Origin: Picochlorum sp. SENEW3
Taxonomy: Eukaryota
Length of the DNA: 64,000 nucleotides
Assembly: GCA_034226945.1 (NCBI GenBank)
Contig: CP120454.1
Coordinates: 1,240,001-1,304,000, forward strand
Direction of reading: 5' to 3'
Shown: positions 19,007-56,246 of the stretch, piece after piece
Layout: each line of letters begins with the position of its first letter
How positions within the stretch are numbered: position 1 is the first letter of the stretch
The notes under the pieces: model-generated
What the model was told of the DNA's origin: nothing
The model's input: the letters and a program-made list of their open reading frames with translations, nothing else
Databases searched by the model: none
Program-made: the position numbers and the translations under genes

Positions 19007-22000
19007 CTATGTGTGGGAGCTATGGTTGAAGACCTTGACAGATTTGGCACGAGCCCAGATATGTGTCAAGGTTGTCCTCAGAGCCGAGTTTGTGCGAGGA
19101 AGCCGTATAAGGAAAAACAGCAGCGCGAGAACGGCAAATCCATAGTATACGCCAACTAAGACACCAATATCTCTGGTGGTGTCATTGCAATTAAATCCCA
19201 AGGTGGTCAAAAAGGTCTCACCACTGATATCTGGAATCTCCAAGGTCTCTGATGTTGGACCAGATTGGTACAAAAATGTAAACGACTGGCCTTTGAGTTC
19301 TGTCGACATCATCGATTCGAAGGCATAGAAAAAGACTGACAAGTAATGGATCCATCGGAGGACTGCTGGGATGGAGTTGACGTTGACCAGGAACCCTGTG
19401 AACGCGAGTGAAAAGAGCAAGATAAAGTTCATGATGAATGATGTCTGTCCCGCGGTGTTGCATGCTATTGTCACTACCATGGATAACGCTCCCACTGCGC
19501 AATTGAAAGAAATGAGGATGAAGAGATAGCTTGCTGCATATGCAGAGCCATATTGGAAACCTGCCATATAGTAAAATGGCAACCAATACAAAATTGCTGG
19601 TATGACTCGCAAAAGCATGCCGTCGAGTGCTATCTTTGATATCAAATAACTCGATGGACGATAGAATTTTGATCGAACTTCCCTCATCACCACGGTTCTT
19701 TCATTCATCAGCAAGTCCACTGTTGTCAGAGATGTAAAGGCCAAAAATGCCAGGGCAAAGAATGTCCCACCCATTCTGTTTTGAACACCGACGCTTGTAT
19801 CATCAAGTTCATAGAATATTGCACCCGCGACGACACCAGTGCATGTTGACAGGATAACGTGCAATGTCAGAAGAGTAGGATTGCGAATGATATCAACCAA
19901 TGTTCTCCAAAACATGACTGACAGTTCTCTCCGTACATCATGTTCTGCTCGATTTTTCTGAGTCGTGTTTTCTTCTGACATTCTATCATCCGCAGATACG
20001 GTGTCGACGGTGGGCGATGGCTCTTCAGATTGGCATGCAGCCATGTCTTCATGAAGGATTGCTTCCCTGCCTTCAAACTTGATCTTTCCTGGGCTGCCCA
20101 CGGAGGAATTCTTTACTACGGCCTTGTCTCGCATCTGCTTTGTTCGCAACATGGCAATCACGCTCTCTGGATTGCTAGCAACTTGTAACATATGCTCTGC
20201 AGTTGGAGTGTTTCTTGCTGGTGGAACCCCTGCATCTGTCATAAATTGGCTTGCCTCTTCTGGTTTCCCCATGTACAAAATTCGACCATGACCCATCAAA
20301 ATAACCGTATCAAGGCCAAAGTACATGTCCTTCGAAGGCTGATGCAGGGATGCAATAACAACCCTGCCAGCTGCAGCTACTTGGCGTAAACAACGTGCCA
20401 ATGTCATTGCAGTGTAAGAGTCCAGCCCGCTGGTTGGCTCATCTAGAACGATGATTGATGGATCAGTCACAAGTTCCATCGCAATGGTGACTCTGCGGCG
20501 TTCACCTCCAGAGACACCGCGAATCTTACCAGACCCTCCAACCTGTGAATCACCCAAATGCTGGATGCCTAGCTCAATCAGGACATTTTCCACACGCTTA
20601 TTGATTTCATCTGGACTCGTCTCTGTTGGCAGCCTCAAAAGTGCGGAATACTTGACGCATTCACGAACTGTCAGGGTGGGAATGAGACAGTCTGTCTGAG
20701 GCACATAGGCAACCTGGTGTGCTTTGCAGGGCTCTCCATTGATCAAAACACTGCCCTCCAACACAGCACTACTTCCAAGGTCAATCGCAGATCCTGTGAT
20801 ACTACCCAAGAGTGTTGTTTTACCACAACCAGATGGTCCAAGAATACCGACAACTTGCCCTGCATTGATGACGCCATTGCAATCTTTCAAAACACACCAC
20901 TCCCCCTTGTACCTTCCATCATGCAATTCAACAACTTTTTGTGCGGCATCCATATGATTGGTCTTTTTGGGACGAGTAAACTCTTCTGGTACTTCTACAT
21001 CATCTGATGTCTTCAATCCAAGCTTTTTCTTCGCCTTTTTCACCACCGAATGTGTCACGCCATGATTGGGTGATGAAAATGTGTGCATCGTCCCATGACG
21101 CACCAAAGCCTTCCCTCTCAACGAATGCCGTTTTAATTCAGCAACTTCCTCAGACATTGGAACATACACTGCTAGATTATGAAACTCAAACGTGTCCACC
21201 ATGGCCTTGTCAGACTTGACATTCGTCCCAACATGTCCATTGCACGAAAAGCCAGTCTTCCAGTACTCTTTCATTTTATATGAATGGAACCCAACAAACC
21301 CAATAACAACAGCCAGAACTATGGTAGGTATTGACGCAATGAAACCATTCAAGTGGAGGTTGTCGACTGGTTGCTCTAATTCACTCGGCGGAACAACCAC
21401 TTCTGACTGCTCAATTGATGATGTCGATGGAACCAAGCACTCTCCTGTAACACACTGCGTCTCAATCCGTGGAACAACAAACCCTTCCAGTCCAAGAATG
21501 CACGTCCCATTATCTTGACACTCCCAAGTCACTTGATCATTCGCTGACTTGACAATGTTATCGATGAGCACATCATTATTGCACTCTCCATTATCAGAGC
21601 ACTCGCACACAATCTTTTCACACACGACATTCTTCCCACCTGGTGTCATCGAGCACGCTGTCGCATCACATTCCACTCCAATTCGAGGATCATTAATATT
21701 GAATGCAATGTAACAGTATTTATCCCCATCCTGCTGCAACAGTCTCCTCCGTCCGAATAAACCCTGCTGTGACCCATCCACTGCAGGTGCAGCATTGTCG
21801 TCCTTGAATCCCGTAAAACACTGCACTTTCACACTATCAGGCTCTAATAGATTAACAATCAAAGGAGGGCCACTTGGATTGCATTGATACGCCTTGATCG
21901 TGCTGGTATTCGCAAATGCAAAGTCATTTGAGCAGGTTGCCAAACTGTTCCCTAGGGACTGAACGCATTGGTCATCACTTGTACACACACCACACCCTGG

Positions 22001-22358
22001 ACCCGGCAGGCCTGGAGGACAAGAATCTGCCTGTGCCTGTACAGCTATATCACAAGAATGCAACCCTGCATAGCATCACGTCATCAATGTGAGAAGAATA
22101 AGAACTAGTCCAACAACAGGTTCGTCGCGTCCTAGAACACGTTGGTTCCCCGAACAATACCCAATTTTTCACAAAGCAACCCCTCCAAGAACCCATATTT
22201 CTGTTAAACGAGTACTTAGACCCCAAGGAATCCGCATATCCGATAGCAATCGAACCCACGCGGTTCCAACGCCCTCTCATGTCCAGGCACGCACCCAGTA
22301 CAACTGCAAGAACAAGCACAGCAACCCTTGAGACTCCATTCGCATGGTATAGTCTCAT
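19007..22358 (-). CDS. ABCG half-transporter with Cys-rich extracellular N-terminus (ADP1-type); exons 22358-22295, 22065-19007
   Basis: Intron GTGCGT...TGCAG gives signal peptide ...VLAVVLGLHSCDIAVQA. Then a Cys-rich ectodomain, TM, GPSGCGKTT, VSGGERRR, LDEPTSGLD and an ABC2 membrane domain. Confidence 0.92.
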
Positions 22359-22812
22359 CCTAAAGTAATCTTTCTATGAAATGACACTCTTATTTTGTTC
22401 TATGTCTGGTTGTAGCAGAGGAACCTCGGTGTACCGACTGACGGAGAGCAGTTCTCGAGACACCCAGCACCACCACCACCACTATGATCTCTCTGTACCA
22501 ATGACAAAATAACTTTATGAACAAAAAGTTAAATTAATGAGTAATAGAGGGGGTTCTGGGATGTATGGGGATATCTGATCATGATGTAGGGTGGACCACC
22601 AGTACGTTTGGTTGGTCATCGTACATCCGAACGACCGGTCATCGCCCCATGGCATGGATTTGATTGATCCTCTTTGAATACATTTTTTTTTCAATCGATG
22701 CATGGTGTCTTCTTTATCTCTCTCTCTCTCTCTATACATACATACACATAGTTTAATATCGATGGGCACATGGCTTTGTAGGTTTTCAATCAGGCAGTAC
22801 TTGGTATTCTGG

Positions 22813-23862
22813 TTATTCCTGCTGCTGCTGCTGCTGCTGCCCTCCTGCAGGAGAGGGCAACAGTGGTGAGGTGAGGTCTTGACCATCATTGACTTGGTCT
22901 TCTTCTCGGTCCGTTGCAGGACGTCCATCCTGCCGACGTTTCTTCTTCTGAAATATTCCAGACAGTGTGGAGAGGATTCTGGAAGACAGGGATCCTCTGC
23001 TCTTTTTACAGATCAACTGATGGGCTGGCTGGAGTCTGTGTCTGTTGTCACAGAGACAAAATACCGTCATGTATACAGTCATGATGGAACTCACGCTGGA
23101 TGATACTGCAACTAAGAAGAAGATTATGATTTGGTAGCGCGCTGCGACAGCTGGGTCTGAGCCTCCAAGGATTTGACCAGTCATCATGCCAGGGATGGAG
23201 ACAATCCCAACCACATTCATGGTATTTATTAATGGCGTCATGGCGAGCCTAAGAGATGTATACACGACGTCTTGTGTGGCTTCCATTCGTGTAGCTCCTA
23301 ACGATAACAAAAGCTCAATACCGTCTCGGCCATTGGCAAACTCGCTTAGAATGGATGTCAGGCCAACAGAGACTGATGAACACGCATTCCCCAGCAGCAT
23401 GCCTAGCAGGGGAATAAGATACTGAGGTTCATACCATGGGGATACGCCGATCACAACGATGAGACCAAATGATATCACTGCTGCACATGTAACGCCAATA
23501 CTAAAAAACACCGCCATGAATTCCCACGAGTATGCATGCTGTGGTCGAGACACGGCTTCTGCTGATGCCACAACTATCATAATGAGGCAGTACCCTAGGG
23601 TCATCCACCATAGATTCGAGGTAAATATAGGGACGAGAATCCACCCTAATACAGAGAGTTGAGATGCACAGCGGATTGCTCCAATTGCAAGTTTATTATG
23701 CAGATGTAGCCTGAGACGGAGAGAGAGCAATGCAACAGCAACAAGGGGCACCACAGCAAAAGCCAGGTAAAGAGGGCTAATGGCTATCGGGCCCCCAGGG
23801 TCTTCCTGCGGCACGTGGCTCATATTGTTTTGGATTGAAGAGGCTACTGGGGCTGCCACCAT
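22813..23862 (-). CDS. UPF0014 ABC permease (FetB/YbbM, ALS3/STAR2 family)
   Basis: IRCASQLSVLGWIL, PQYLIPLLGMLLGNA, LSLGATRMEA, VGIVSIPGMMTGQILGGSDPAVAARYQI. Confidence 0.93.
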   Translation of the reverse strand: MVAAPVASSIQNNMSHVPQEDPGGPIAISPLYLAFAVVPLVAVALLSLRLRLHLHNKLAIGAIRCASQLSVLGWILVPIFTSNLWWMTLGYCLIMIVVASAEAVSRPQHAYSWEFMAVFFSIGVTCAAVISFGLIVVIGVSPWYEPQYLIPLLGMLLGNACSSVSVGLTSILSEFANGRDGIELLLSLGATRMEATQDVVYTSLRLAMTPLINTMNVVGIVSIPGMMTGQILGGSDPAVAARYQIIIFFLVAVSSSVSSIMTVYMTVFCLCDNRHRLQPAHQLICKKSRGSLSSRILSTLSGIFQKKKRRQDGRPATDREEDQVNDGQDLTSPLLPSPAGGQQQQQQQE

Positions 23863-24682
23863 CCTCCGAATTGTCCAAATCCTTATCTGATTCTACAAAT
23901 GTATAGGCACCCTGCAGACCTGGCAAGCTAGACTGAATATATGTTTCAGGTGATAATGGCGGGGTACCCGCGACTGCAAAAGAACCGCTAGGTATTTCTA
24001 ATATAGATCCGCCGACACGGCCCGGCTGGTATTGATCGTGGCTCACCCACACCAAACCACACCCAGATGATTTCAACAGTCGTTCAACCTTTCTAGCAGA
24101 CTCTGGATCCAATGCAGATGTTGGCTCGTCGAGTAATAGAAACACAGGATTCAACGCTAAAGCAATGGCTATATGAACTCGTTGGGCTTGACCACCAGAC
24201 AGAGACGCCCACGACTGATGAAGTATTGATTGTTCAAGCCCCAAGTAGTGAATCAGTTGAGGCAAGTCACCTCGAGGCCTCCTTCGCTGCGCAGCAAATT
24301 GCTGCACTTTGAAATAGAATTCGGCCGGAGTATCCGTAAATCCAGTCCTAGACTGCGATATATAGCTCACTTGAGCCCTCCAATCTGGCAGACGGATATT
24401 CTCTTGCGATACGCCGTTGAAAAACAGGGTACGTGGCTCAACCCTGTCCAACCCAGCTAAACTTCGAAGCAACTGACTTTTTCCAGCTCCGCTCGGACCA
24501 CGAATGAACAGAGTCTCTCCTCGTCGGATAGAGAAGGATATATTTGTAAACAAAAGTTTATCACCCACTTGTTTGGACAATCCCCGTACCAGCAACTCCT
24601 CCCGAGGCTCGTGCTTGTCTTGTTCAATATCAAACTCCTCGTGGTTATGGAGGCCTTCAACTTGCCCCACAGACATTCGCAT
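23777..24682 (-). CDS. Stand-alone ABC ATPase (FetA/YbbL, STAR1-like)
   Basis: Walker A GPSGAGKS, Q-loop YISQ, signature LSGGQAQR, Walker B LLLDEPTSALD, H-loop WVSHD; no TM segments. Confidence 0.92.
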   Translation of the reverse strand: MRMSVGQVEGLHNHEEFDIEQDKHEPREELLVRGLSKQVGDKLLFTNISFSIRRGETLFIRGPSGAGKSQLLRSLAGLDRVEPRTLFFNGVSQENIRLPDWRAQVSYISQSRTGFTDTPAEFYFKVQQFAAQRRRPRGDLPQLIHYLGLEQSILHQSWASLSGGQAQRVHIAIALALNPVFLLLDEPTSALDPESARKVERLLKSSGCGLVWVSHDQYQPGRVGGSILEIPSGSFAVAGTPPLSPETYIQSSLPGLQGAYTFVESDKDLDNSEDGGSPSSLFNPKQYEPRAAGRPWGPDSH

Positions 24683-24977
24683 GGAATATTTGTGTGATGA
24701 TACGATTGGATCTGCAAGAAGGAGGCTTCATACGGCAGAAATGTACGTTTGGGTTTGAACATGGAATCTTTTTTGAACACCTAGTTCCGTAAAAAGAAAT
24801 AGAATGTTCTTCTTTTTATGGGTATTCTACAACTGCATGTTCAATCATGCGGCGCACCATACACGTAAAAGTATCTAAAAAAGATGTATTAAAACAATAT
24901 GTCCGTCTGCCTGGCTGAGACGTACAGGCCTATCGATTCGGTCTTTTTTTCTTCAAAGGAACATGTCTTGAACGAAC

Positions 24978-25748
24978 ATGGATGAAGCCGATAGGAAGGC
25001 ATCCATGCGCGCTGTATGGAGTAAACGACAGAAATATAAATATGATGTGACTAGAAGACGACATTCTACTCGGGATGCAGGAACAGGAAGAGCAAGAGGA
25101 GGAGCAAGAGGGAGGCCTGGGGCTCATAGAGTAGCAGAGCAGCGTGATCGATATGATGACATTGTCGAAGAAGGGACGGTAGAAAGAGGAGAGGATTATG
25201 AAGAATGGTTGGCAATGTGCCCGAAGGAGCCTCCCGACGTGTTGGTTCGACAGCGTGCCCTGTTGCCTGATGTGGATTTTCTGCGCAGGACTTTACTAGA
25301 GGAGCATGTCACATCGTCTTCGGTAGACGACACGGGTGGATTGAATCTACAGTATATAGCATCCGTGTTGAGTTGTATCCCAAGTATACAGGATGTGCTT
25401 GATGTGCCAGATGAGACCATGCTGGTCATGTTTGGTCAAAAAAGAACTAGGCAGTATTCTTCTGCAGAAGGGTACCCGCCCCAGTCCACTCCAGATGATG
25501 CCTCTGATGCACAAGAAATGACACACGCTCTTGCTGAGAAGGAAAAGATTATAGCAACAGAAAGAGTGTCGCAGGAGAGTGCTATTCCCCATGGAAGGGA
25601 GAATGTTGGTGAAACCAACAAGCAGGTCTCTGTGGATGATGTTCTTGCCGCTGCCATGGGCGACCACTTGTCACTGAATACAGCATCAGATCACCCAGTA
25701 AGTCGAGAAGAACAAGACGATTTAGACGCTTGGTTTGAGAACTTATAA
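24978..25748 (+). CDS. Uncharacterised protein, possibly Aven/CER16-like
   Basis: Basic RG-rich N-terminus, DRYDD motif and terminal DDLDAWFENL. The family link rests on short motifs only. Confidence 0.55.
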   Translation: MDEADRKASMRAVWSKRQKYKYDVTRRRHSTRDAGTGRARGGARGRPGAHRVAEQRDRYDDIVEEGTVERGEDYEEWLAMCPKEPPDVLVRQRALLPDVDFLRRTLLEEHVTSSSVDDTGGLNLQYIASVLSCIPSIQDVLDVPDETMLVMFGQKRTRQYSSAEGYPPQSTPDDASDAQEMTHALAEKEKIIATERVSQESAIPHGRENVGETNKQVSVDDVLAAAMGDHLSLNTASDHPVSREEQDDLDAWFENL

Positions 25749-25798
25749 ACAAAAGAAATAGTAAAAACAATGAAGAACCATATATGTTAACATACTGC

Positions 25799-27010
25799 CT
25801 ATGAGTCTGGATCTATGACTGCATGTCTCAATGGCACATCACGAGCCGCTTGGAACAAACGCGTATATGTCCTAGAACCATGTGTCGTCAAGTCAATTGG
25901 GCGTAAAGACATGCTATTTATACAGTATGGGTCGGCTCCGGCATCAAGCAACATTGACACACAGTCAAAGTGATCCCCACGAACTGCATTATGCAGCGGC
26001 GAATCCCCATCATTATCCGACGTATGCACACAATCTGGAGCCTTGTCAAGTAGTAACCCAAGAATAGATACATAACCACCGGCTGCAGCGTCATGGAGCG
26101 GTGTTGCTCCATCCTCATCTACCACATTCGCTGCATGTCCCATGTCCAGGAGAAATTGCGCAATTTCATAATGCCCATGCAAGCACGCCAAATGGAGCGC
26201 AGTGTCCCCAGTAGGCCCAACCATACCCAAGGGCGACCGCATGATTGCAGCCGTCTGAAACACAGCAGTGAGATTTCCTTCCTCAATTGCTTGATGGAAT
26301 CTCTCCAAAATCTGCTCTGAACTGGTATGCATCTCCCATCTCCAAATATCCATTAATCTATTCGCCATATACTCCACCGAATAACTTCTCATCGGTGAGT
26401 ACTGATTATTATTCAAACGCGGATTCATATCAAAGCGATCCAGATGCCCCACCATCACCTGTATTGCACGAAACGCAAATGTACATTCATCCGACCGCCT
26501 CGCCCGGGACAATGACCCGACCCTTCGATCCACATTCCTCAAATATGTATGACGAATATGCTCTGCCAATCTATGACACTCCCTACGAATGCGTTCCTCA
26601 TCCAGCTCCCCTTGCACCTCGTTGACCACCACCTGACCAGTACCTTGCACCTCCCCCTCACCCATCCGACGTCTATGCACATGAATAATCGTCTCAATCA
26701 AACTATCATGCTCAGACAAGGGTTCTTGTCCCAGATTATCAGCAAGAAAATCAGGCTCCTGCAATACCCCATGCCCACCTACCACTCCAGTATACCGGTC
26801 CGCCTCCTCCTCCGCGATACTCCGCCGGTACATTTCCATCCCTGCTTGTAAATTCCGCAAATTCCTTTGCTGTTCGTCGAGATGTCGCTGGCTCTGACGC
26901 TCTCCATCACGAAAACCATGCCGTTGATTCAAACGCGGTCCTTCCTCTTTGACTCGCTCTTCTAAAACAGAATCACGACTATCCAAATAGCCTCGAAATG
27001 GAATCCCCAT
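25799..27010 (-). CDS. Ankyrin-repeat protein
   Basis: Three ankyrin repeats (GDTALHLAC, GATPLHDAA, GDSPLHNAV); first in-frame ATG at 27010. Confidence 0.85.
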   Translation of the reverse strand: MGIPFRGYLDSRDSVLEERVKEEGPRLNQRHGFRDGERQSQRHLDEQQRNLRNLQAGMEMYRRSIAEEEADRYTGVVGGHGVLQEPDFLADNLGQEPLSEHDSLIETIIHVHRRRMGEGEVQGTGQVVVNEVQGELDEERIRRECHRLAEHIRHTYLRNVDRRVGSLSRARRSDECTFAFRAIQVMVGHLDRFDMNPRLNNNQYSPMRSYSVEYMANRLMDIWRWEMHTSSEQILERFHQAIEEGNLTAVFQTAAIMRSPLGMVGPTGDTALHLACLHGHYEIAQFLLDMGHAANVVDEDGATPLHDAAAGGYVSILGLLLDKAPDCVHTSDNDGDSPLHNAVRGDHFDCVSMLLDAGADPYCINSMSLRPIDLTTHGSRTYTRLFQAARDVPLRHAVIDPDS

Positions 27011-40246: not shown

Positions 40247-40705
40247 TGTACTTTTTCGTGAGCGAAGGAACTGAGTGATTTAGGAGTGTGTATATAGAAG
40301 AACAGTCAGTTGTATTGATTTATACATATATACAGAGGAAACAAGAGAGCATTGGATGCTTCACATGCATCCACGAGTGCTGTTAATGTATCAACGATAT
40401 GAGAAGATGAGTCTGAAATGCACGCCCTGTATGCAGAGTGATTCGTTCGTGTTTGCTGACTTGTTTTTGTTTCATCGAGGCATTCACCTGAACAATGGTT
40501 GTTGCCCACGTGTCATAATACACGACGACTACGATCAATGGCGTTTTTTAATTTCTATTATATGTATTGTATCATACATATCCAATGCATGCATTCTTTC
40601 AGTCAGTATTTTACAGCAGATTGAGTAAACTGATTTGGTCAAAAAATATTCATATAGGTAGTTCCTCTGCAAAAGGCAACTTCAGCAGCCGTGAATAGGT
40701 GATGA

Positions 40706-41227
40706 TCACTTCTTCTTTTTGCACTGGCCGTTTTTCTTCAACTTGTACCCAGAATCGCACTTTTTGCACTTTGTACCTTTGGAGTTGCATTTGGTGCAGT
40801 TTTTCGGGCACTTGTTTCGAGTTTTGATATCTTTGGCGCAGATATCCTCATCATCTTTGGTTCTGTACAGAGAGAAACCATCTTCACACTGGTCACAATA
40901 TTTTGGTGATCCATCTTCACAGTTCTCTGGAGGCTCGTCCGTTCCATAATTGATACACATTTCCCTGTCTTCACGTTCCTCGTCAAAGAAACACGTGTAA
41001 CACTTTGTGTCGGAGCATTTTTGGCAGGTTTTGCCTATAGAGCCAAACTTTCCCTTCTTATTGGCGAGGCCGTAACCAGGTGCACATCCTCCACACAACC
41101 CATTACTTGCATTACAGCAATTTTTCACAGAACCGTCTCCTCCGTCGCAACTCTTTGGTTCTGCCTGGCAACCAGCTGTCGCCAGTAGCATCAACATGGC
41201 ACCCAAGAGCAAAAAGATACGAGACAT
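40706..41227 (-). CDS. Secreted Cys-rich protein with furin-like/CxxC repeats
   Basis: Signal peptide; repeated CxxC..CxxCxxG(Y/F)xL units. Confidence 0.8.
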   Translation of the reverse strand: MSRIFLLLGAMLMLLATAGCQAEPKSCDGGDGSVKNCCNASNGLCGGCAPGYGLANKKGKFGSIGKTCQKCSDTKCYTCFFDEEREDREMCINYGTDEPPENCEDGSPKYCDQCEDGFSLYRTKDDEDICAKDIKTRNKCPKNCTKCNSKGTKCKKCDSGYKLKKNGQCKKKK

Positions 41228-53821: not shown

Positions 53822-56246
53822 ATGGCAACGCCGTCTCCGGTGAAAATACCTCCTGGTATAGCAAAAGCGTCTAAAGAAGAGTTGGAAAAGCTATTGGTGA
53901 ATGCGTTGCATAAAATAAAGGCACGAGATCGGACCATTGCGGAATTAGAAGGCCAATCTGATACAAGCGGCGTAGAGCAGCCCTCTGGAGATGACTCAAA
54001 GGTTGAAGAATTAGAAAATACTGTTCAGGGATTGCAGGAAAGGTTGGTTGATGGGGAGAAGAAGTATCAGGAGAGGTTGCAAGCTGAGACTGAGGTTCTT
54101 TTGAAGGGGTTTGCGGAGGAACGGGAGCGTCTTCGGGATGGATTTGAGGCGGAACGGCGGAAGGAGCATGAGAAGATTGTCAAGCTGGATGCGGATCATG
54201 ATCGACAGGCGGCGGAGATTGAGAGATTGACTGGCCTGGTGGAGCGGTCTGAGCAGGTGCAGATGGATGCAGAGAACGAGCTTGGTGAGGAGAAACAACA
54301 GTTGTTGAAGGAGATTGGTGATTTGAAGGCGCATAATGAATCGTTGACGAGTCGATTGGATGAGATGGGGAAGGATGTGGAGAGGCGTATGGAGACTGGA
54401 GATGAGGCTGTGCGTAGCCTTGAGAAGGCACTTTCAGAGTCAAAGAACGACGTGGGTGTTGAGAAGGAGAAGAATGAAGTTGCCGAAAAGGAGATTCAGA
54501 GTCTGAAAGATGAATTGGAGAAGATGAAAGGAGAGCAGTCGAAGAGGATATCTGAGGAGATTGCAGGTTTGAAGAAGGAGCTTGATGATGCAAAATTAGA
54601 ATTAGAGAATAAACCGGCGCCGCAGGTTCCCGCCAAGATTGAGTTTGATGAATCTAGTTTCGTAAAGATTGAAGATTATAAGGCTCTGCAGAAAGAAATG
54701 GGTGATATGAAGAAGAAATTTGCGCAGTCTTTGAAGAAGAAACAGGCAGAATCTGAGAGCACGTGCGTGTGGCTTCACTTTGTGTTGGCGATTGATGGGT
54801 TGATGCCGTCTGAGGGATGTTTTTTGTTATTGTAGGATTGAAGAGTTGAAGAAAGAATTGGAAGCTGCCAAGACAGCTGGGAGCGGTAAAGGTTCTTCTA
54901 CTGGTGAAGTAGCTCAGATTAGAAAAGAAGTTGAGGTGGAAAGGAGCAGGTTCAAAAGAGCATTAGGGGAGCTTAAGAGAAGGAATGAAAGCTTATCCAA
55001 GTCCAAAATAGACCTTGAGAAACAAGTGTCAGATTTGGAAGTGCTAATTGAATCGTTAAAGGCGGAAGGAGCTGCTGCTGCTCGTCAGGCTCAAGAGGCT
55101 CGAAGTCTTGCAGAGCAATCGTCGAATGCGTTCAAGGAGTACAAGGCACGGGCACATAGTCTGTTGAAAGCAAAAGAGGATGAAATAAAGGAGGGTAGGT
55201 CGACAGCGAAAGAGGAGTATGAAAAGCAGATTGAAGAGGCCCGTGCAGAAAAGGTTCAGGCTGAGACACGGTTGAAGGATGTTGTTGAGGAATTGGAGAA
55301 ATTAAAGTCAGAAAACCTTGAACACGTGTATTCAGTGGAGCAAAAGTATGAAGGGAAAATTGCAGATATGGAGAAAGAGTTGAAAAACGCCAAAGAATGC
55401 AGCAAGGCATCCAATCGGCAATATGAACAGTTGAGAGTCAGGCTAGAGTCATATGATGACCGCTTCCAGTCTCTCAAGCGACAATTGGAGGAGTCGAAGC
55501 AGGAGTTGCTGGCAGCAAAATCACATCACCCTGGTTCTTCCATCTCTGAAAGCGATTATGAAAGCCTCAGAGCAGCCTTGTCGAGATCTGAGAAAGAAAA
55601 GCTTGCATTGGAGGAGGTAAAAGTTGTGATGGAGGGAGAGATTGCAGACTTGAAAGCAATGATCAAGCAATTGAAGATGACGCTTGCGATGAAAACAAGC
55701 CTTCCAAAACCTGAAATAGATGTAGATATGTTGCATCATAGACCTAGCAGTGCTGATTTCGTCGTGTCGCCAAAAGTTTCTGGGTCACAGAGTGCAACGG
55801 CCTCTGTGGCCGCGGATGATCTTGAGAACCTCCATCAACAACTTGCTGCTGCAAATAGAAAGGCGTCTATTGCGGAACAGGAGGTTGATGATTTAGAGAA
55901 GGAGGTAGAACTCCGGAACACTCAGGAAAAAGCTCTGAAAGAAACAGTGCGTGAGTTGGAACGAGAACTTGAAAGAGTCAAATTGACATCCAAGGGTGTT
56001 GATATGGAATACTTCAAGAACATCCTGCTCAAGCTGTTCGAGACGGGCGAAGAAGAGAGTTTACTCCCGGTCATTGGTACAATGTTGAAGTTTAGTCCAG
56101 CAGAGCTCGATCGATGTAGGAAGGCGCTCGCGATGAGACGAGAACAACACGCTGACCTGCTGCAAGGGGCTGGGGAGGCATCTGCAAATGTGACGTCATA
56201 TCTGACTGATCTGCTCGGATTTGGGACGACGACCTCCGAGGCGTAA
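53822..56246 (+). CDS. GRIP: GRIP-domain golgin; exons 53822-54762, 54836-56246
   Basis: Long coiled coil; GRIP domain VDMEYFKNILLKLFETGEEESLLPVIGTMLKFSPAE; intron GTGCGT...TAG in phase. Confidence 0.92.

What the first reader, a model, noticed from the sequence alone, without database searches (positions are those of the whole stretch)
22813..24682. Operon-like overlapping ABC ATPase + permease pair with an 811-nt ATG-free stretch: candidate leaky-scanning bicistronic transporter gene
Seen: the FetA/STAR1-type ATPase ORF (24682-23777) overlaps the FetB/ALS3-type permease ORF (23862-22813) by 86 nt on the same strand, in the +1 frame, leaving no intergenic promoter space. By manual scan there is no ATG in any frame on the coding strand from 24673 to 23863 (811 nt; about 13 expected at 1/64). 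The 301-aa ATPase has Met only at residues 1 and 3. Those two ATGs are in weak context (tccATGc, cgaATGt), while the next ATG is the permease start in strong context (aggATGG; A-3, G+4). No TGTAA follows the ATPase stop. Established: fetA-fetB (ybbL-ybbM) is a bacterial operon in this order; land-plant STAR1 and STAR2/ALS3 are separate genes whose products form one complex; green algae have bicistronic nuclear mRNAs attributed to leaky scanning. Inference: one mRNA makes both subunits, with their ratio set by start-codon leakiness and maintained by selection against internal AUGs.
Basis: partly seen in the sequence, partly recalled or inferred. Interest (0 to 1): 0.93.

Follow-up and report, generated by a model that had tools for sequence, protein, structure and literature searches.

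The report
Two-subunit ABC transporter on one mRNA
A green alga encodes the ATPase and the membrane subunit of one ABC transporter as two overlapping reading frames, with no start codon between them, so scanning ribosomes can reach the second gene; this arrangement is real but is already catalogued for the same gene pair in a related alga.

Summary
On the minus strand a 301-aa ABC ATPase ORF (24682-23777) overlaps a 349-aa UPF0014/FetB-type permease ORF (23862-22813) by 86 nt. No ATG occurs in any frame from 24673 to 23863, where about 22 are expected from the window's other genes. Four sequencing runs show no indel here. A colinear contig from a run that holds spliced RNA bridges both ORFs.

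ORF1's two ATGs lie in weak context and ORF2's in strong context. The ATPase core lacks methionine in 51 of 85 homologues. The leaky-scanning reading is therefore supported (about 0.8).

It is not new in kind. Duenas et al. 2025 (PNAS) list the orthologous pair in Auxenochlorella protothecoides as a bicistron with zero AUGs in ORF1, colinear in five other trebouxiophytes. The window is from a Picochlorum-like trebouxiophyte.

New details:
- The 86-nt overlap puts ORF2's start upstream of ORF1's stop, which argues against reinitiation.
- AUG avoidance reaches the amino-acid level.
- Both genes group with one bacterial fetA-fetB subgroup. This leaves open that the bicistron descends from an operon.

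TSS, poly(A) site and translation remain untested.

The parts
23777..24682 (-). ORF1: 301-aa ABC ATPase (FetA-like nucleotide-binding subunit); Met only at residues 1 and 3
   Evidence: ORF. PF00005 90.6 bits against a cut-off of 25; the best NCBIfam model is FetA NF007601, 113.6 bits, below its equivalog cut-off of 292. In other strains 9 of 10 listed SNPs in the ATG-free stretch are synonymous.
24674..24682 (-). The two in-frame ORF1 start codons (24682 and 24676), both in weak context: T at -3 and C at +4; C at -3 and T at +4
   Evidence: Among the first ATGs of the 24 other long ORFs, 17 have a purine at -3 and 12 have G at +4 (counted by hand from the context strings printed).
23863..24673 (-). 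811-nt stretch without ATG in any frame on the coding strand
22813..23862 (-). ORF2: 349-aa UPF0014/FetB-type permease. Start ATG at 23862 in strong context (A at -3, G at +4); second in-frame ATG at 23823 (Met14)
   Evidence: PF03649 239.3 bits against a cut-off of 22.6. TIGR00245 FetB 129.3 bits, below its equivalog cut-off of 410. (context).
23777..23862 (-). 86-nt overlap of ORF1's poorly conserved C-terminal tail with ORF2's N-terminus, ORF2 in the +1 frame
   Evidence: Three SNPs of other strains here are non-synonymous in both frames. No indel or joint in 4 of 4 runs.
23779..23802 (-). Codons for ORF2 residues 21-28 (DPGGPIAI). G24, P25 and I28 are nearly invariant among 36 permeases. 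They lie upstream of ORF1's stop, so ORF2 must start inside ORF1
   Evidence: alignment A2; coordinates worked out.
24683..24730 (-). ATG-free leader. The predicted 5'UTR would lie here if the TSS is downstream of the upstream ATGs at 24731 and 24762
   Evidence: This is inference; the TSS was not measured. The orthologous Auxenochlorella mRNA has a 16-nt 5'UTR.
22527..22812 (-). Largest space available for the 3'UTR, bounded by the first exon of the downstream ABCG gene
   Evidence: spliced contigs of X1 and X7 cover 22293-22460 and 22294-22526. The poly(A) site is not known.

Best explanation
One capped mRNA carries both subunits of a FetAB/UPF0014-type ABC transporter.

Proposed mechanism:
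1. Some scanning 40S subunits start at the two weak-context AUGs of ORF1 (24682, 24676) and make the ATPase.
2. The rest pass them and scan 814 nt that hold no AUG in any frame.
3. They start at the first strong-context AUG (23862) and make the permease.
4. Because ORF2's start lies 86 nt upstream of ORF1's stop, ribosomes that translate ORF1 cannot easily feed ORF2. The subunit ratio is then set by how leaky the ORF1 starts are.

Shown:
- the sequence anatomy;
- the statistical purge of AUGs;
- the absence of a frameshift error or intron;
- a colinear contig across both ORFs from a run that holds spliced RNA;
- AUG avoidance in orthologues;
- orthology to a published long-read-defined bicistron;
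- a model that supports binding of the two proteins.

Inferred:
- a single transcript in this organism;
- a short AUG-free 5'UTR;
- translation of both ORFs and their ratio.
For: Anatomy and statistics:
- Zero ATG in 811 nt against about 22 expected. P(no Met) = 1.9e-4, and zero out-of-frame ATGs in 23 of 20,000 synonymous resamplings.
- ORF1's AUGs have a pyrimidine at -3 and no G at +4. ORF2 has A at -3 and G at +4.

Integrity and RNA:
- There is no indel between 22935 and 24880 in X1, X5, X7 or X15.
- X1 and X7 carry a GT..AG splice of the neighbouring gene (22064-22292), so they hold RNA.
- X1 contig 4 (1551 nt) is colinear with 23303-24782, across ORF1, the overlap and 560 nt of ORF2.

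Orthologues:
- The ATPase core is Met-free in 51 of 85 homologues, against 3-5 Met in 10 of 10 fungal relatives and 2-3 in permease-to-ATPase fusions.
- In the tree, the window sits in an all-Met-free clade of 26 rows.
- Met-free cores have fewer dipeptides able to encode an out-of-frame ATG: median 10 against 16.
- None of the 10 listed strain SNPs in the stretch creates an ATG.

Adjacency elsewhere:
- Nine ATPase/permease pairs share a contig length, three of them on contigs of 2360-3369 nt.
- Locus tags are consecutive in Parachlorella and Micractinium.

Literature:
- Duenas et al. 2025, Datasets S1B and S2B (supplement rows and sheet read): A. protothecoides ORF1 is an ABC ATPase of 729 nt with 0 AUG; the inter-ORF is 147 nt with 0 AUG; the 5'UTR is 16 nt; ORF2 is UPF0014.
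- The C. vulgaris orthologue KAI3436587.1 is my hit P0036.

Complex model: ipSAE 0.79 against a best control of 0.00. The runs agree in >=90% of contacts and the partner pLDDT is 81-82. This mark was reached by 51 of 78 solved complexes and 2 of 108 mismatched pairs.
Against: - No long-read cDNA, 5'-end, poly(A), Ribo-seq or proteome data for this organism were available.
- The tool states that a contig across two genes does not show a single transcript.
- No listed run is on record as RNA. RNA content is inferred from one splice joint.
- If the TSS lies upstream of 24731 or 24762, the leader would hold two further AUGs. Both are in weak context and open ORFs of 24 and 101 codons. The X1 contig does extend to 24782 and beyond.
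- Met-free homologues are related to each other, so the counts are not independent events. The tree needs only 7 changes of state.
- The complex model supports binding but does not show it.
Confidence: 0.8

Rival explanations
1. Two separate mRNAs: the permease is made mainly from its own transcript, which starts at a promoter inside the ATPase ORF. The overlap is then just compact gene packing.
For: The genome is very compact: ORFs of >=250 aa cover 41 of 64 kb. No transcript ends were measured. The Auxenochlorella genome preprint notes isoforms predicted to come from internal promoters (passage seen).
Against: This does not explain the total loss of in-frame and out-of-frame ATGs over 811 nt, nor their avoidance in orthologues. 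The orthologous Auxenochlorella locus was curated from Iso-Seq as found exclusively on one transcript (section read).
Confidence: 0.08
2. Termination-reinitiation: ribosomes finish ORF1, and the 40S subunit moves back 86 nt (or 47 nt to Met14) and restarts at ORF2.
For: Duenas et al. state that post-termination 40S subunits can move both ways over short distances, and that they cannot wholly discount reinitiation (section read).
Against: ORF1 is 906 nt long. Duenas et al. note that reinitiation efficiency falls with uORF length. The required move is backwards by 47-86 nt. AUGs far from the stop (up to 800 nt away) are purged as well, which reinitiation does not require. The published mutational tests in a related alga favour leaky scanning.
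Confidence: 0.04
3. Programmed +1 frameshifting or an unrecognised splice fuses the ATPase and permease into one polypeptide.
For: The ORFs overlap with ORF2 in the +1 frame. True permease-ATPase fusions exist in a related lineage: P0229 and P0065.
Against: No joint or gap appears in the contigs across the overlap in 4 of 4 runs. The natural fusions have the opposite order. The orthologous locus has a 147-nt spacer. AUG depletion is left unexplained. The annotated ATPase-permease 'fusions' P0207 and P0237 cut the ATPase right after Walker B and look like gene-model artefacts.
Confidence: 0.02
4. An assembly frameshift error splits what is really one gene.
For: There is a C5 homopolymer at 23792-23796 inside the overlap.
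Against: No indel at that site in X1, X5, X7 or X15, which come from four studies. X15 may be the source sample. P0001 and P0002 from other assemblies have the same ORF1 end region.
Confidence: 0.01

Closest known systems
Auxenochlorella protothecoides bicistron UTEX250_A04.07340 (ABC ATPase) / UTEX250_A04.07335 (UPF0014), Duenas et al. 2025 PNAS, Datasets S1B, S2B, S5 (supplement rows read)
   Same: Same two protein families in the same order, with no AUG in ORF1. It is listed as colinear in Prototheca, two Chlorella species, Nannochloris desiccata and Coccomyxa. The C. vulgaris orthologue named there (KAI3436587.1) is my ATPase hit P0036.
   Different: There the ORFs are separated by 147 nt and ORF1 is 729 nt. 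Here they overlap by 86 nt and ORF1 is 906 nt. That locus has Iso-Seq support; this one has only a short-read contig. The pair is not discussed in the paper's main text ('ABC' and 'transporter' each occur 0 times).
Green-algal leaky-scanning bicistrons in general (Gallaher et al. 2021, passages read; Duenas et al. 2025, sections read)
   Same: Weak ORF1 context, strong ORF2 context and AUG depletion before ORF2.
   Different: The typical ORF1 is short (median 291-357 nt) and often of unknown function. Here ORF1 is a full-size enzyme subunit, and its partner subunit is ORF2.
Bacterial fetA-fetB (ybbL-ybbM) operon
   Same: Same families and same order. In 76 of 80 bacterial fetB loci fetched, an ABC ATPase ORF lies directly upstream on the same strand, with its frame running up to or past the start of the fetB match. 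The algal ATPase and permease both fall in the same bacterial subgroup, 43 of 43 loci shared.
   Different: Bacteria use a separate ribosome entry for each cistron. Here a cap-dependent scanning solution is inferred. The iron-export function of E. coli FetAB is recalled, not tested. The NCBIfam equivalog cut-offs are not met.
Land-plant STAR1 + STAR2/ALS3 (recalled; papers seen in the search listing only)
   Same: A UPF0014-type membrane protein working with a separate ABC ATPase.
   Different: These are separate genes in plants (recalled). No plant sequence appeared among the best 120 hits of either search, and none was compared here.
Yeast siderophore operon acquired from bacteria (Kominek et al., bioRxiv 10.1101/399394; listing and start of abstract seen) and the Drosophila stoned/Snapin bicistrons (as described by Duenas et al.)
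   Same: The yeast case is a precedent for a bacterial operon kept in a eukaryote. The Drosophila cases are precedents for long AUG-poor upstream ORFs.
   Different: They involve different genes and lineages. Operon descent is not shown here.

Membership tests
Green-algal exclusively bicistronic mRNA translated by leaky scanning | Two conserved protein-coding ORFs, colinear on one strand, with short or no spacing | tested here: met
   they overlap by 86 nt, and both ORFs have strong Pfam matches.
Green-algal exclusively bicistronic mRNA translated by leaky scanning | Both ORFs lie on one mature transcript, and only there | tested here: inconclusive
   an X1 contig bridges both ORFs without a joint. 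Contigs cannot show transcript ends or exclusivity, and no long reads were available.
Green-algal exclusively bicistronic mRNA translated by leaky scanning | Weak Kozak-like context at ORF1 and a stronger one at ORF2 | tested here: met
   ORF1 has T/C at -3 and C/T at +4; ORF2 has A at -3 and G at +4. Of the 24 other long ORFs, 17 have a purine at -3 (counted by hand from the context strings printed).
Green-algal exclusively bicistronic mRNA translated by leaky scanning | AUG depletion upstream of ORF2 | tested here: met
   0 observed against about 22 expected.
Green-algal exclusively bicistronic mRNA translated by leaky scanning | Short 5'UTR | not testable with these tools
   The TSS is unknown. 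Only 49 nt upstream of ORF1's AUG are AUG-free.
Green-algal exclusively bicistronic mRNA translated by leaky scanning | Both ORFs are translated (Ribo-seq or proteomics) | not testable with these tools
   No such data were at hand.
Green-algal exclusively bicistronic mRNA translated by leaky scanning | Orthology to a catalogued bicistron | tested here: met
   P0036 (E 3.2e-70 to ORF1) is KAI3436587.1. Dataset S2B names that accession as the colinear orthologue of UTEX250_A04.07340.
ABC transporter ATPase (PF00005) / FetA (NF007601) | Score over the curated cut-off | tested here: met
   PF00005: 90.6 bits against 25. The FetA equivalog model is the best NCBIfam hit, but at 113.6 bits it is below its cut-off of 292. 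ORF1 is a relative, not an equivalog.
UPF0014 (PF03649) / FetB (TIGR00245) | Score over the curated cut-off | tested here: met
   PF03649: 239.3 bits against 22.6. TIGR00245 scores 129.3 bits, below its equivalog cut-off of 410.
FetAB-type two-subunit transporter | The ATPase binds the permease | tested here: met
   the model supports binding but does not show it. ipSAE is 0.79 against a best control of 0.00. The runs agree in >=90% of contacts and the partner pLDDT is 81-82. The mark was reached by 51 of 78 solved complexes and 2 of 108 mismatched pairs. The interface joins permease residues 180-194 and 274-277 to ATPase residues 76-132 and 170-177.
Plant STAR1-STAR2/ALS3 | Orthology to the plant proteins | not tested
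   No plant sequence was retrieved. The control genomes of the genome search are prokaryotes only.

The most novel reading that the evidence does not exclude
The bicistron is a surviving bacterial operon. Under this reading, green algae acquired fetA-fetB together from a Myxococcota/Bradymonadia-like donor and kept the genes adjacent and in order. They adapted the operon to cap-dependent scanning by purging every AUG from the first gene, so a roughly 200-residue ATPase core has had to evolve without methionine. Where the link was broken (Chlorophyceae, and a lineage that fused the genes in reverse order), methionines returned.
Probability: 0.25. Interest if true: 0.7.

Novelty: new member of a known kind. 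Interest (0 to 1): 0.4.

Why it matters
For annotation:
- Automatic pipelines split, drop or falsely fuse such loci. Examples are the gene models P0207 and P0237, and the many unnamed ATPases.
- An ATG-free upstream ORF is a cheap, sequence-only flag for them.

For mechanism:
- The overlap puts ORF2's start upstream of ORF1's stop. This is a natural argument for leaky scanning over reinitiation.
- It suggests that scanning can pass a full-size 0.9-kb ORF.

For evolution:
- The expression mechanism appears to have constrained the protein's composition. The core has no Met and few dipeptides that could encode an out-of-frame ATG.
- The pair may be a rare case of a bacterial operon kept as a eukaryotic bicistron.

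None of this changes the fact that the phenomenon and this gene pair are already in print.

Tried and rejected
- RNA runs: no RNA holder is listed. All 18 runs were of guessed or unknown kind.
- TSS: contig ends and depths cannot place it. X1's contig ends at 24782 with 71 unlike letters, and a second contig starts at 24785 with 63 unlike letters. I read this as an insertion polymorphism in that strain, not as a leader.
- Own genome: none is held.
- Orthologous DNA:
  - The one metagenome scan picked generic ABC motifs and returned 80 loci with <=39% identity to ORF1. They were not used.
  - My family-specific degenerate motif found 0 matches in genome contigs and 0 in viral contigs.
  - Out-of-frame ATG counts in orthologues therefore rest on the published Auxenochlorella row and on protein-level proxies.
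- Frameshift error and intron: rejected.
- TGTAA as a poly(A) marker: uninformative in this genome.
- Other long ATG-free gaps (54963-54334 on the minus strand, 40702-41196 on the plus strand): antisense to a Glu/Lys-rich and a Cys/Lys-rich ORF, so compositional.
- Earlier findings of this scan: four look-ups, nothing found.
- Picochlorum with 'bicistronic' or 'polycistronic' in the paper library: no paper describes this locus (listings; passages of PMC12633428 and PMC7826186).
- Solved structures: no PDB relative of the permease at E <= 0.01.
- Plant STAR1/ALS3 comparison: not possible.
Full report
**What is there.** On the minus strand, ORF1 (24682-23777) encodes a 301-aa protein with Met only at residues 1 and 3. 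ORF2 (23862-22813) encodes 349 aa.
- The ORFs overlap by 86 nt, with ORF2 in the +1 frame.
- ORF1 is an ABC ATPase. PF00005 scores 90.6 bits. FetA is the best NCBIfam model at 113.6 bits, below its equivalog cut-off of 292.
- ORF2 is a UPF0014/FetB-type permease. PF03649 scores 239.3 bits. TIGR00245 scores 129.3 bits, below its cut-off of 410.
- A structure model of the two cores supports binding but does not show it. ipSAE is 0.79 against a best control of 0.00. The runs agree in >=90% of contacts and the partner pLDDT is 81-82. The mark was reached by 51 of 78 solved complexes and 2 of 108 mismatched pairs.
- The modelled interface joins a permease segment (residues 180-194) to ATPase residues 76-132 and 170-177.
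- No solved structure is related to the permease by sequence.

**The organism.** The window is eukaryotic, with GC about 0.47, and is dense in long intron-free ORFs. It carries green-lineage genes such as a response-regulator/CCT protein. Its proteasome beta-5 is 99% identical to a EukProt protein labelled jgi/Picre1, which I read from memory as a Picochlorum portal code. The best named permease relative is from Nannochloris 'desiccata' at 59% identity. I take the source to be a Picochlorum-like trebouxiophyte.

**The ATG-free stretch is real and far beyond chance.**
- ATGs on the coding strand lie at 24682 and 24676, then none until 23862.
- The 814-nt gap is the longest on either strand of the window. 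The next two (629 nt and 494 nt) lie antisense to compositionally biased genes.
- The 25 other ORFs of >=250 aa hold 19.5-37 ATG per kb. ORF1 holds 4.4.
- From those ORFs, 8.4 in-frame and 13.7 out-of-frame ATGs are expected in 813 nt. None is seen.
- P(no Met in 270 residues) is 1.9e-4.
- Resampling synonymous codons for the actual protein gave a mean of 4.18 out-of-frame ATGs, and zero in only 23 of 20,000 trials.
- Only 8 of 269 dipeptides could encode an out-of-frame ATG at all.
- ORF1's two AUGs have T/C at -3 and C/T at +4. ORF2's AUG has A at -3 and G at +4. Among the first ATGs of the 24 other long ORFs, 17 have a purine at -3 and 12 have G at +4 (my hand count from the context strings printed).

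**It is not an artefact.** I laid contigs of four runs from four studies on 21700-25800.
- There is no indel between 22935 and 24880 in any of them, including the C5 run at 23792-23796.
- There is no joint in the overlap.
- X1 and X7 carry a joint that removes 22064-22292 (GT..AG on the minus strand) from the downstream ABCG gene, so they contain spliced RNA.
- X1's 1551-nt contig is colinear with 23303-24782. It crosses ORF1, the overlap and 560 nt of ORF2.
- The tool warns that such a contig does not prove a single transcript, and no listed run is on record as RNA.
- The runs differ from the window by about 1.5%. Of the 10 listed variants inside the ATG-free stretch, none creates an ATG, 9 are synonymous in ORF1 and 1 is not. 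The 3 variants in the overlap change both proteins. A further 98 variants were not shown by the tool.

**Orthologues.**
- Among 85 ATPase homologues with a core of >=150 aa, 51 have no Met in the core (window residues 30-235). All 10 fungal relatives have 3-5 Met, and two permease-to-ATPase fusion proteins have 2-3. The alignment held the window, P0001-P0092 without seven long double-ABC proteins, and three fused forms.
- I built a tree of 80 of these rows. I left out the two fused gene models and cores outside 170-230 aa.
  - The green-algal clade of 65 rows has 48 Met-free members.
  - The window sits in an all-Met-free clade of 26 rows.
  - Met-bearing forms gather in a Chlorophyceae/Tetraselmis subclade.
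  - The tree needs 7 changes of state, against a shuffled mean of 24.6.
- Met-free cores also hold fewer ATG-capable dipeptides: median 10 (n=43) against 16 (n=21), with 6 in the window. The rows are related, so the Mann-Whitney value is not a true probability.
- Adjacency elsewhere is inferred from three observations.
  - Nine ATPase/permease pairs share a contig length (567075, 59189, 50518, 45149, 17769, 8280, 3369, 2941 and 2360).
  - Locus tags are consecutive in Parachlorella and Micractinium.
  - Two gene models (P0207 from [Myrmecia] bisecta, P0237 from Trebouxia) join an ATPase cut right after Walker B to the permease. I read these as mis-annotated bicistrons.

**It is already known in kind, and for this gene pair.**
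- Gallaher et al. 2021 (passages read) and Duenas et al. 2025 (sections 5-8, 13 and 16 read) describe exclusively bicistronic mRNAs in green algae. Their features are a weak ORF1 context and AUG depletion before ORF2. The mechanism was tested by mutation in Auxenochlorella.
- Dataset S1B of Duenas et al. lists UTEX250_A04.07340 (ABC ATPase; ORF1 of 729 nt; 5'UTR of 16 nt; 0 in-frame and 0 out-of-frame AUGs) followed, after 147 AUG-free nt, by UTEX250_A04.07335 (UPF0014).
- Dataset S2B lists the pair as colinear in Prototheca cutis, Chlorella sorokiniana (PacBio), C. vulgaris, Nannochloris desiccata and Coccomyxa.
- The C. vulgaris accession given there, KAI3436587.1, is my hit P0036.
- It is the longest AUG-free ORF1 among the 43 Auxenochlorella loci.
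- The paper's main text does not discuss the pair. 'ABC', 'transporter' and 'overlap' each occur 0 times.

**Mechanism and rivals.**
- The best reading is leaky scanning on one mRNA (0.8).
- ORF2's nearly invariant residues G24, P25 and I28 are encoded at 23793-23779, upstream of ORF1's stop. ORF2 must therefore start inside ORF1, whichever of its two ATGs (23862 or 23823) is used.
- Reinitiation would need a backward move of 47-86 nt after a 906-nt ORF, so I rate it 0.04.
- A separate internal promoter (0.08) and frameshift fusion (0.02) leave the AUG purge unexplained.
- An assembly error (0.01) is refuted.

**Open points.**
- The TSS, the poly(A) site and translation of both ORFs are not measured.
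- The AUG-free leader is only 49 nt long. ATGs at 24731 (24 codons) and 24762 (101 codons), both in weak context, would lie in the 5'UTR if the TSS is further upstream.
- X1's contig does reach 24782, where that strain seems to carry an insertion.

**A lead on origin.**
- I fetched 80 bacterial fetB loci. They were chosen by likeness to the bacterial FetBs that rank nearest the algal permease, so the sample is biased.
- In 76 of them an ABC ATPase ORF lies directly upstream on the same strand, with its frame running up to or past the start of the fetB match. In 1 it lies downstream, 1 has none, and 2 are cut by the contig end.
- The best bacterial ATPase hit of the big search, P0069, is the fetA of one of these loci (L084). 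It outranks all fungal hits.
- In the trees, the algal ATPases (clade support 97) and the algal permeases (99) each fall inside the same bacterial subgroup. Of its loci, 43 of 43 are shared. Support is 93 for the ATPase tree and 97 for the permease tree.
- The fungal ATPases attach elsewhere, next to Bradymonadales-type FetA (support 97).
- That subgroup is also the largest one, so the agreement is only weak evidence. No plant sequence could be included.
- Neither PNAS paper mentions a bacterial origin for any algal bicistron ('operon' 0 and 2 generic uses; 'horizontal' 0 and 0).
- Operon descent therefore stays a reading that the evidence does not exclude (0.25).

**Verdict.** The locus is a further member, with overlapping ORFs, of a published class, and an orthologue of a catalogued locus.

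Noticed in passing
window 22064-22292 (-), exons to 22526: A 229-nt GT..AG intron is removed in contigs of X1 (depth 342.6) and X7. It joins a short 5' exon (22293 to about 22526) to the ABCG transporter ORF 19007-21649. X15 runs straight through it. This bounds the 3'UTR of the bicistron.
   Followed up: partly
window 24782-24785: In run X1, one contig ends at 24782 with 71 unlike letters, and another starts at 24785 with 63 unlike letters. The ends look like an inverted repeat. This is probably an insertion polymorphism (a small terminal-inverted-repeat element?) about 100 nt upstream of ORF1 in that strain.
   Followed up: no
proteins P0229 (585 aa), P0065 (461 aa), P0066: These are true permease-to-ATPase fusion proteins, in the reverse of the bicistron's order. 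They nest inside the green-algal clade in both trees. Their ATPase cores carry 2-3 Met, which makes them a natural control for the Met-free state.
   Followed up: partly
proteins P0207 ([Myrmecia] bisecta) and P0237 (Trebouxia sp.): These annotated 'fusions' join an ATPase truncated right after Walker B to a full permease. They are most likely gene-model artefacts at bicistronic loci. [Myrmecia] bisecta also has a stand-alone permease paralogue (P0206). In Coccomyxa subellipsoidea C-169, the listed permease (P0210) and the ATPase (P0029) lie on scaffolds of different length.
   Followed up: partly
window 23929-23973 (-), ORF1 residues 237-251: A motif TPPLSPE...SSLP follows the ABC domain and is conserved in most of the 27 aligned algal ATPases. 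Its function is unknown.
   Followed up: no
window 54334-54963 (-) and 40702-41196 (+): These are the second and third longest ATG-free gaps in the window. They lie antisense to a Glu/Lys-rich coiled-coil ORF (53822-54835) and a Cys/Lys-rich secreted-type ORF (40706-41227). They are compositional, not bicistrons.
   Followed up: yes
loci L081-L160; fungal proteins P0075-P0092: Mucoromycota and Kickxellomycotina-type fungal FetA-like ATPases group with Bradymonadales-type bacterial FetA (support 97), apart from the green-algal clade. This hints at separate bacterial origins of the family in fungi and in algae.
   Followed up: partly
window 22705-22853: A CAG run encodes the poly-Gln C-terminus of the permease, and a (GA)n tract lies in the 3' region. 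The read-laying tool skipped this stretch as repeats, so cover there is unknown.
   Followed up: no
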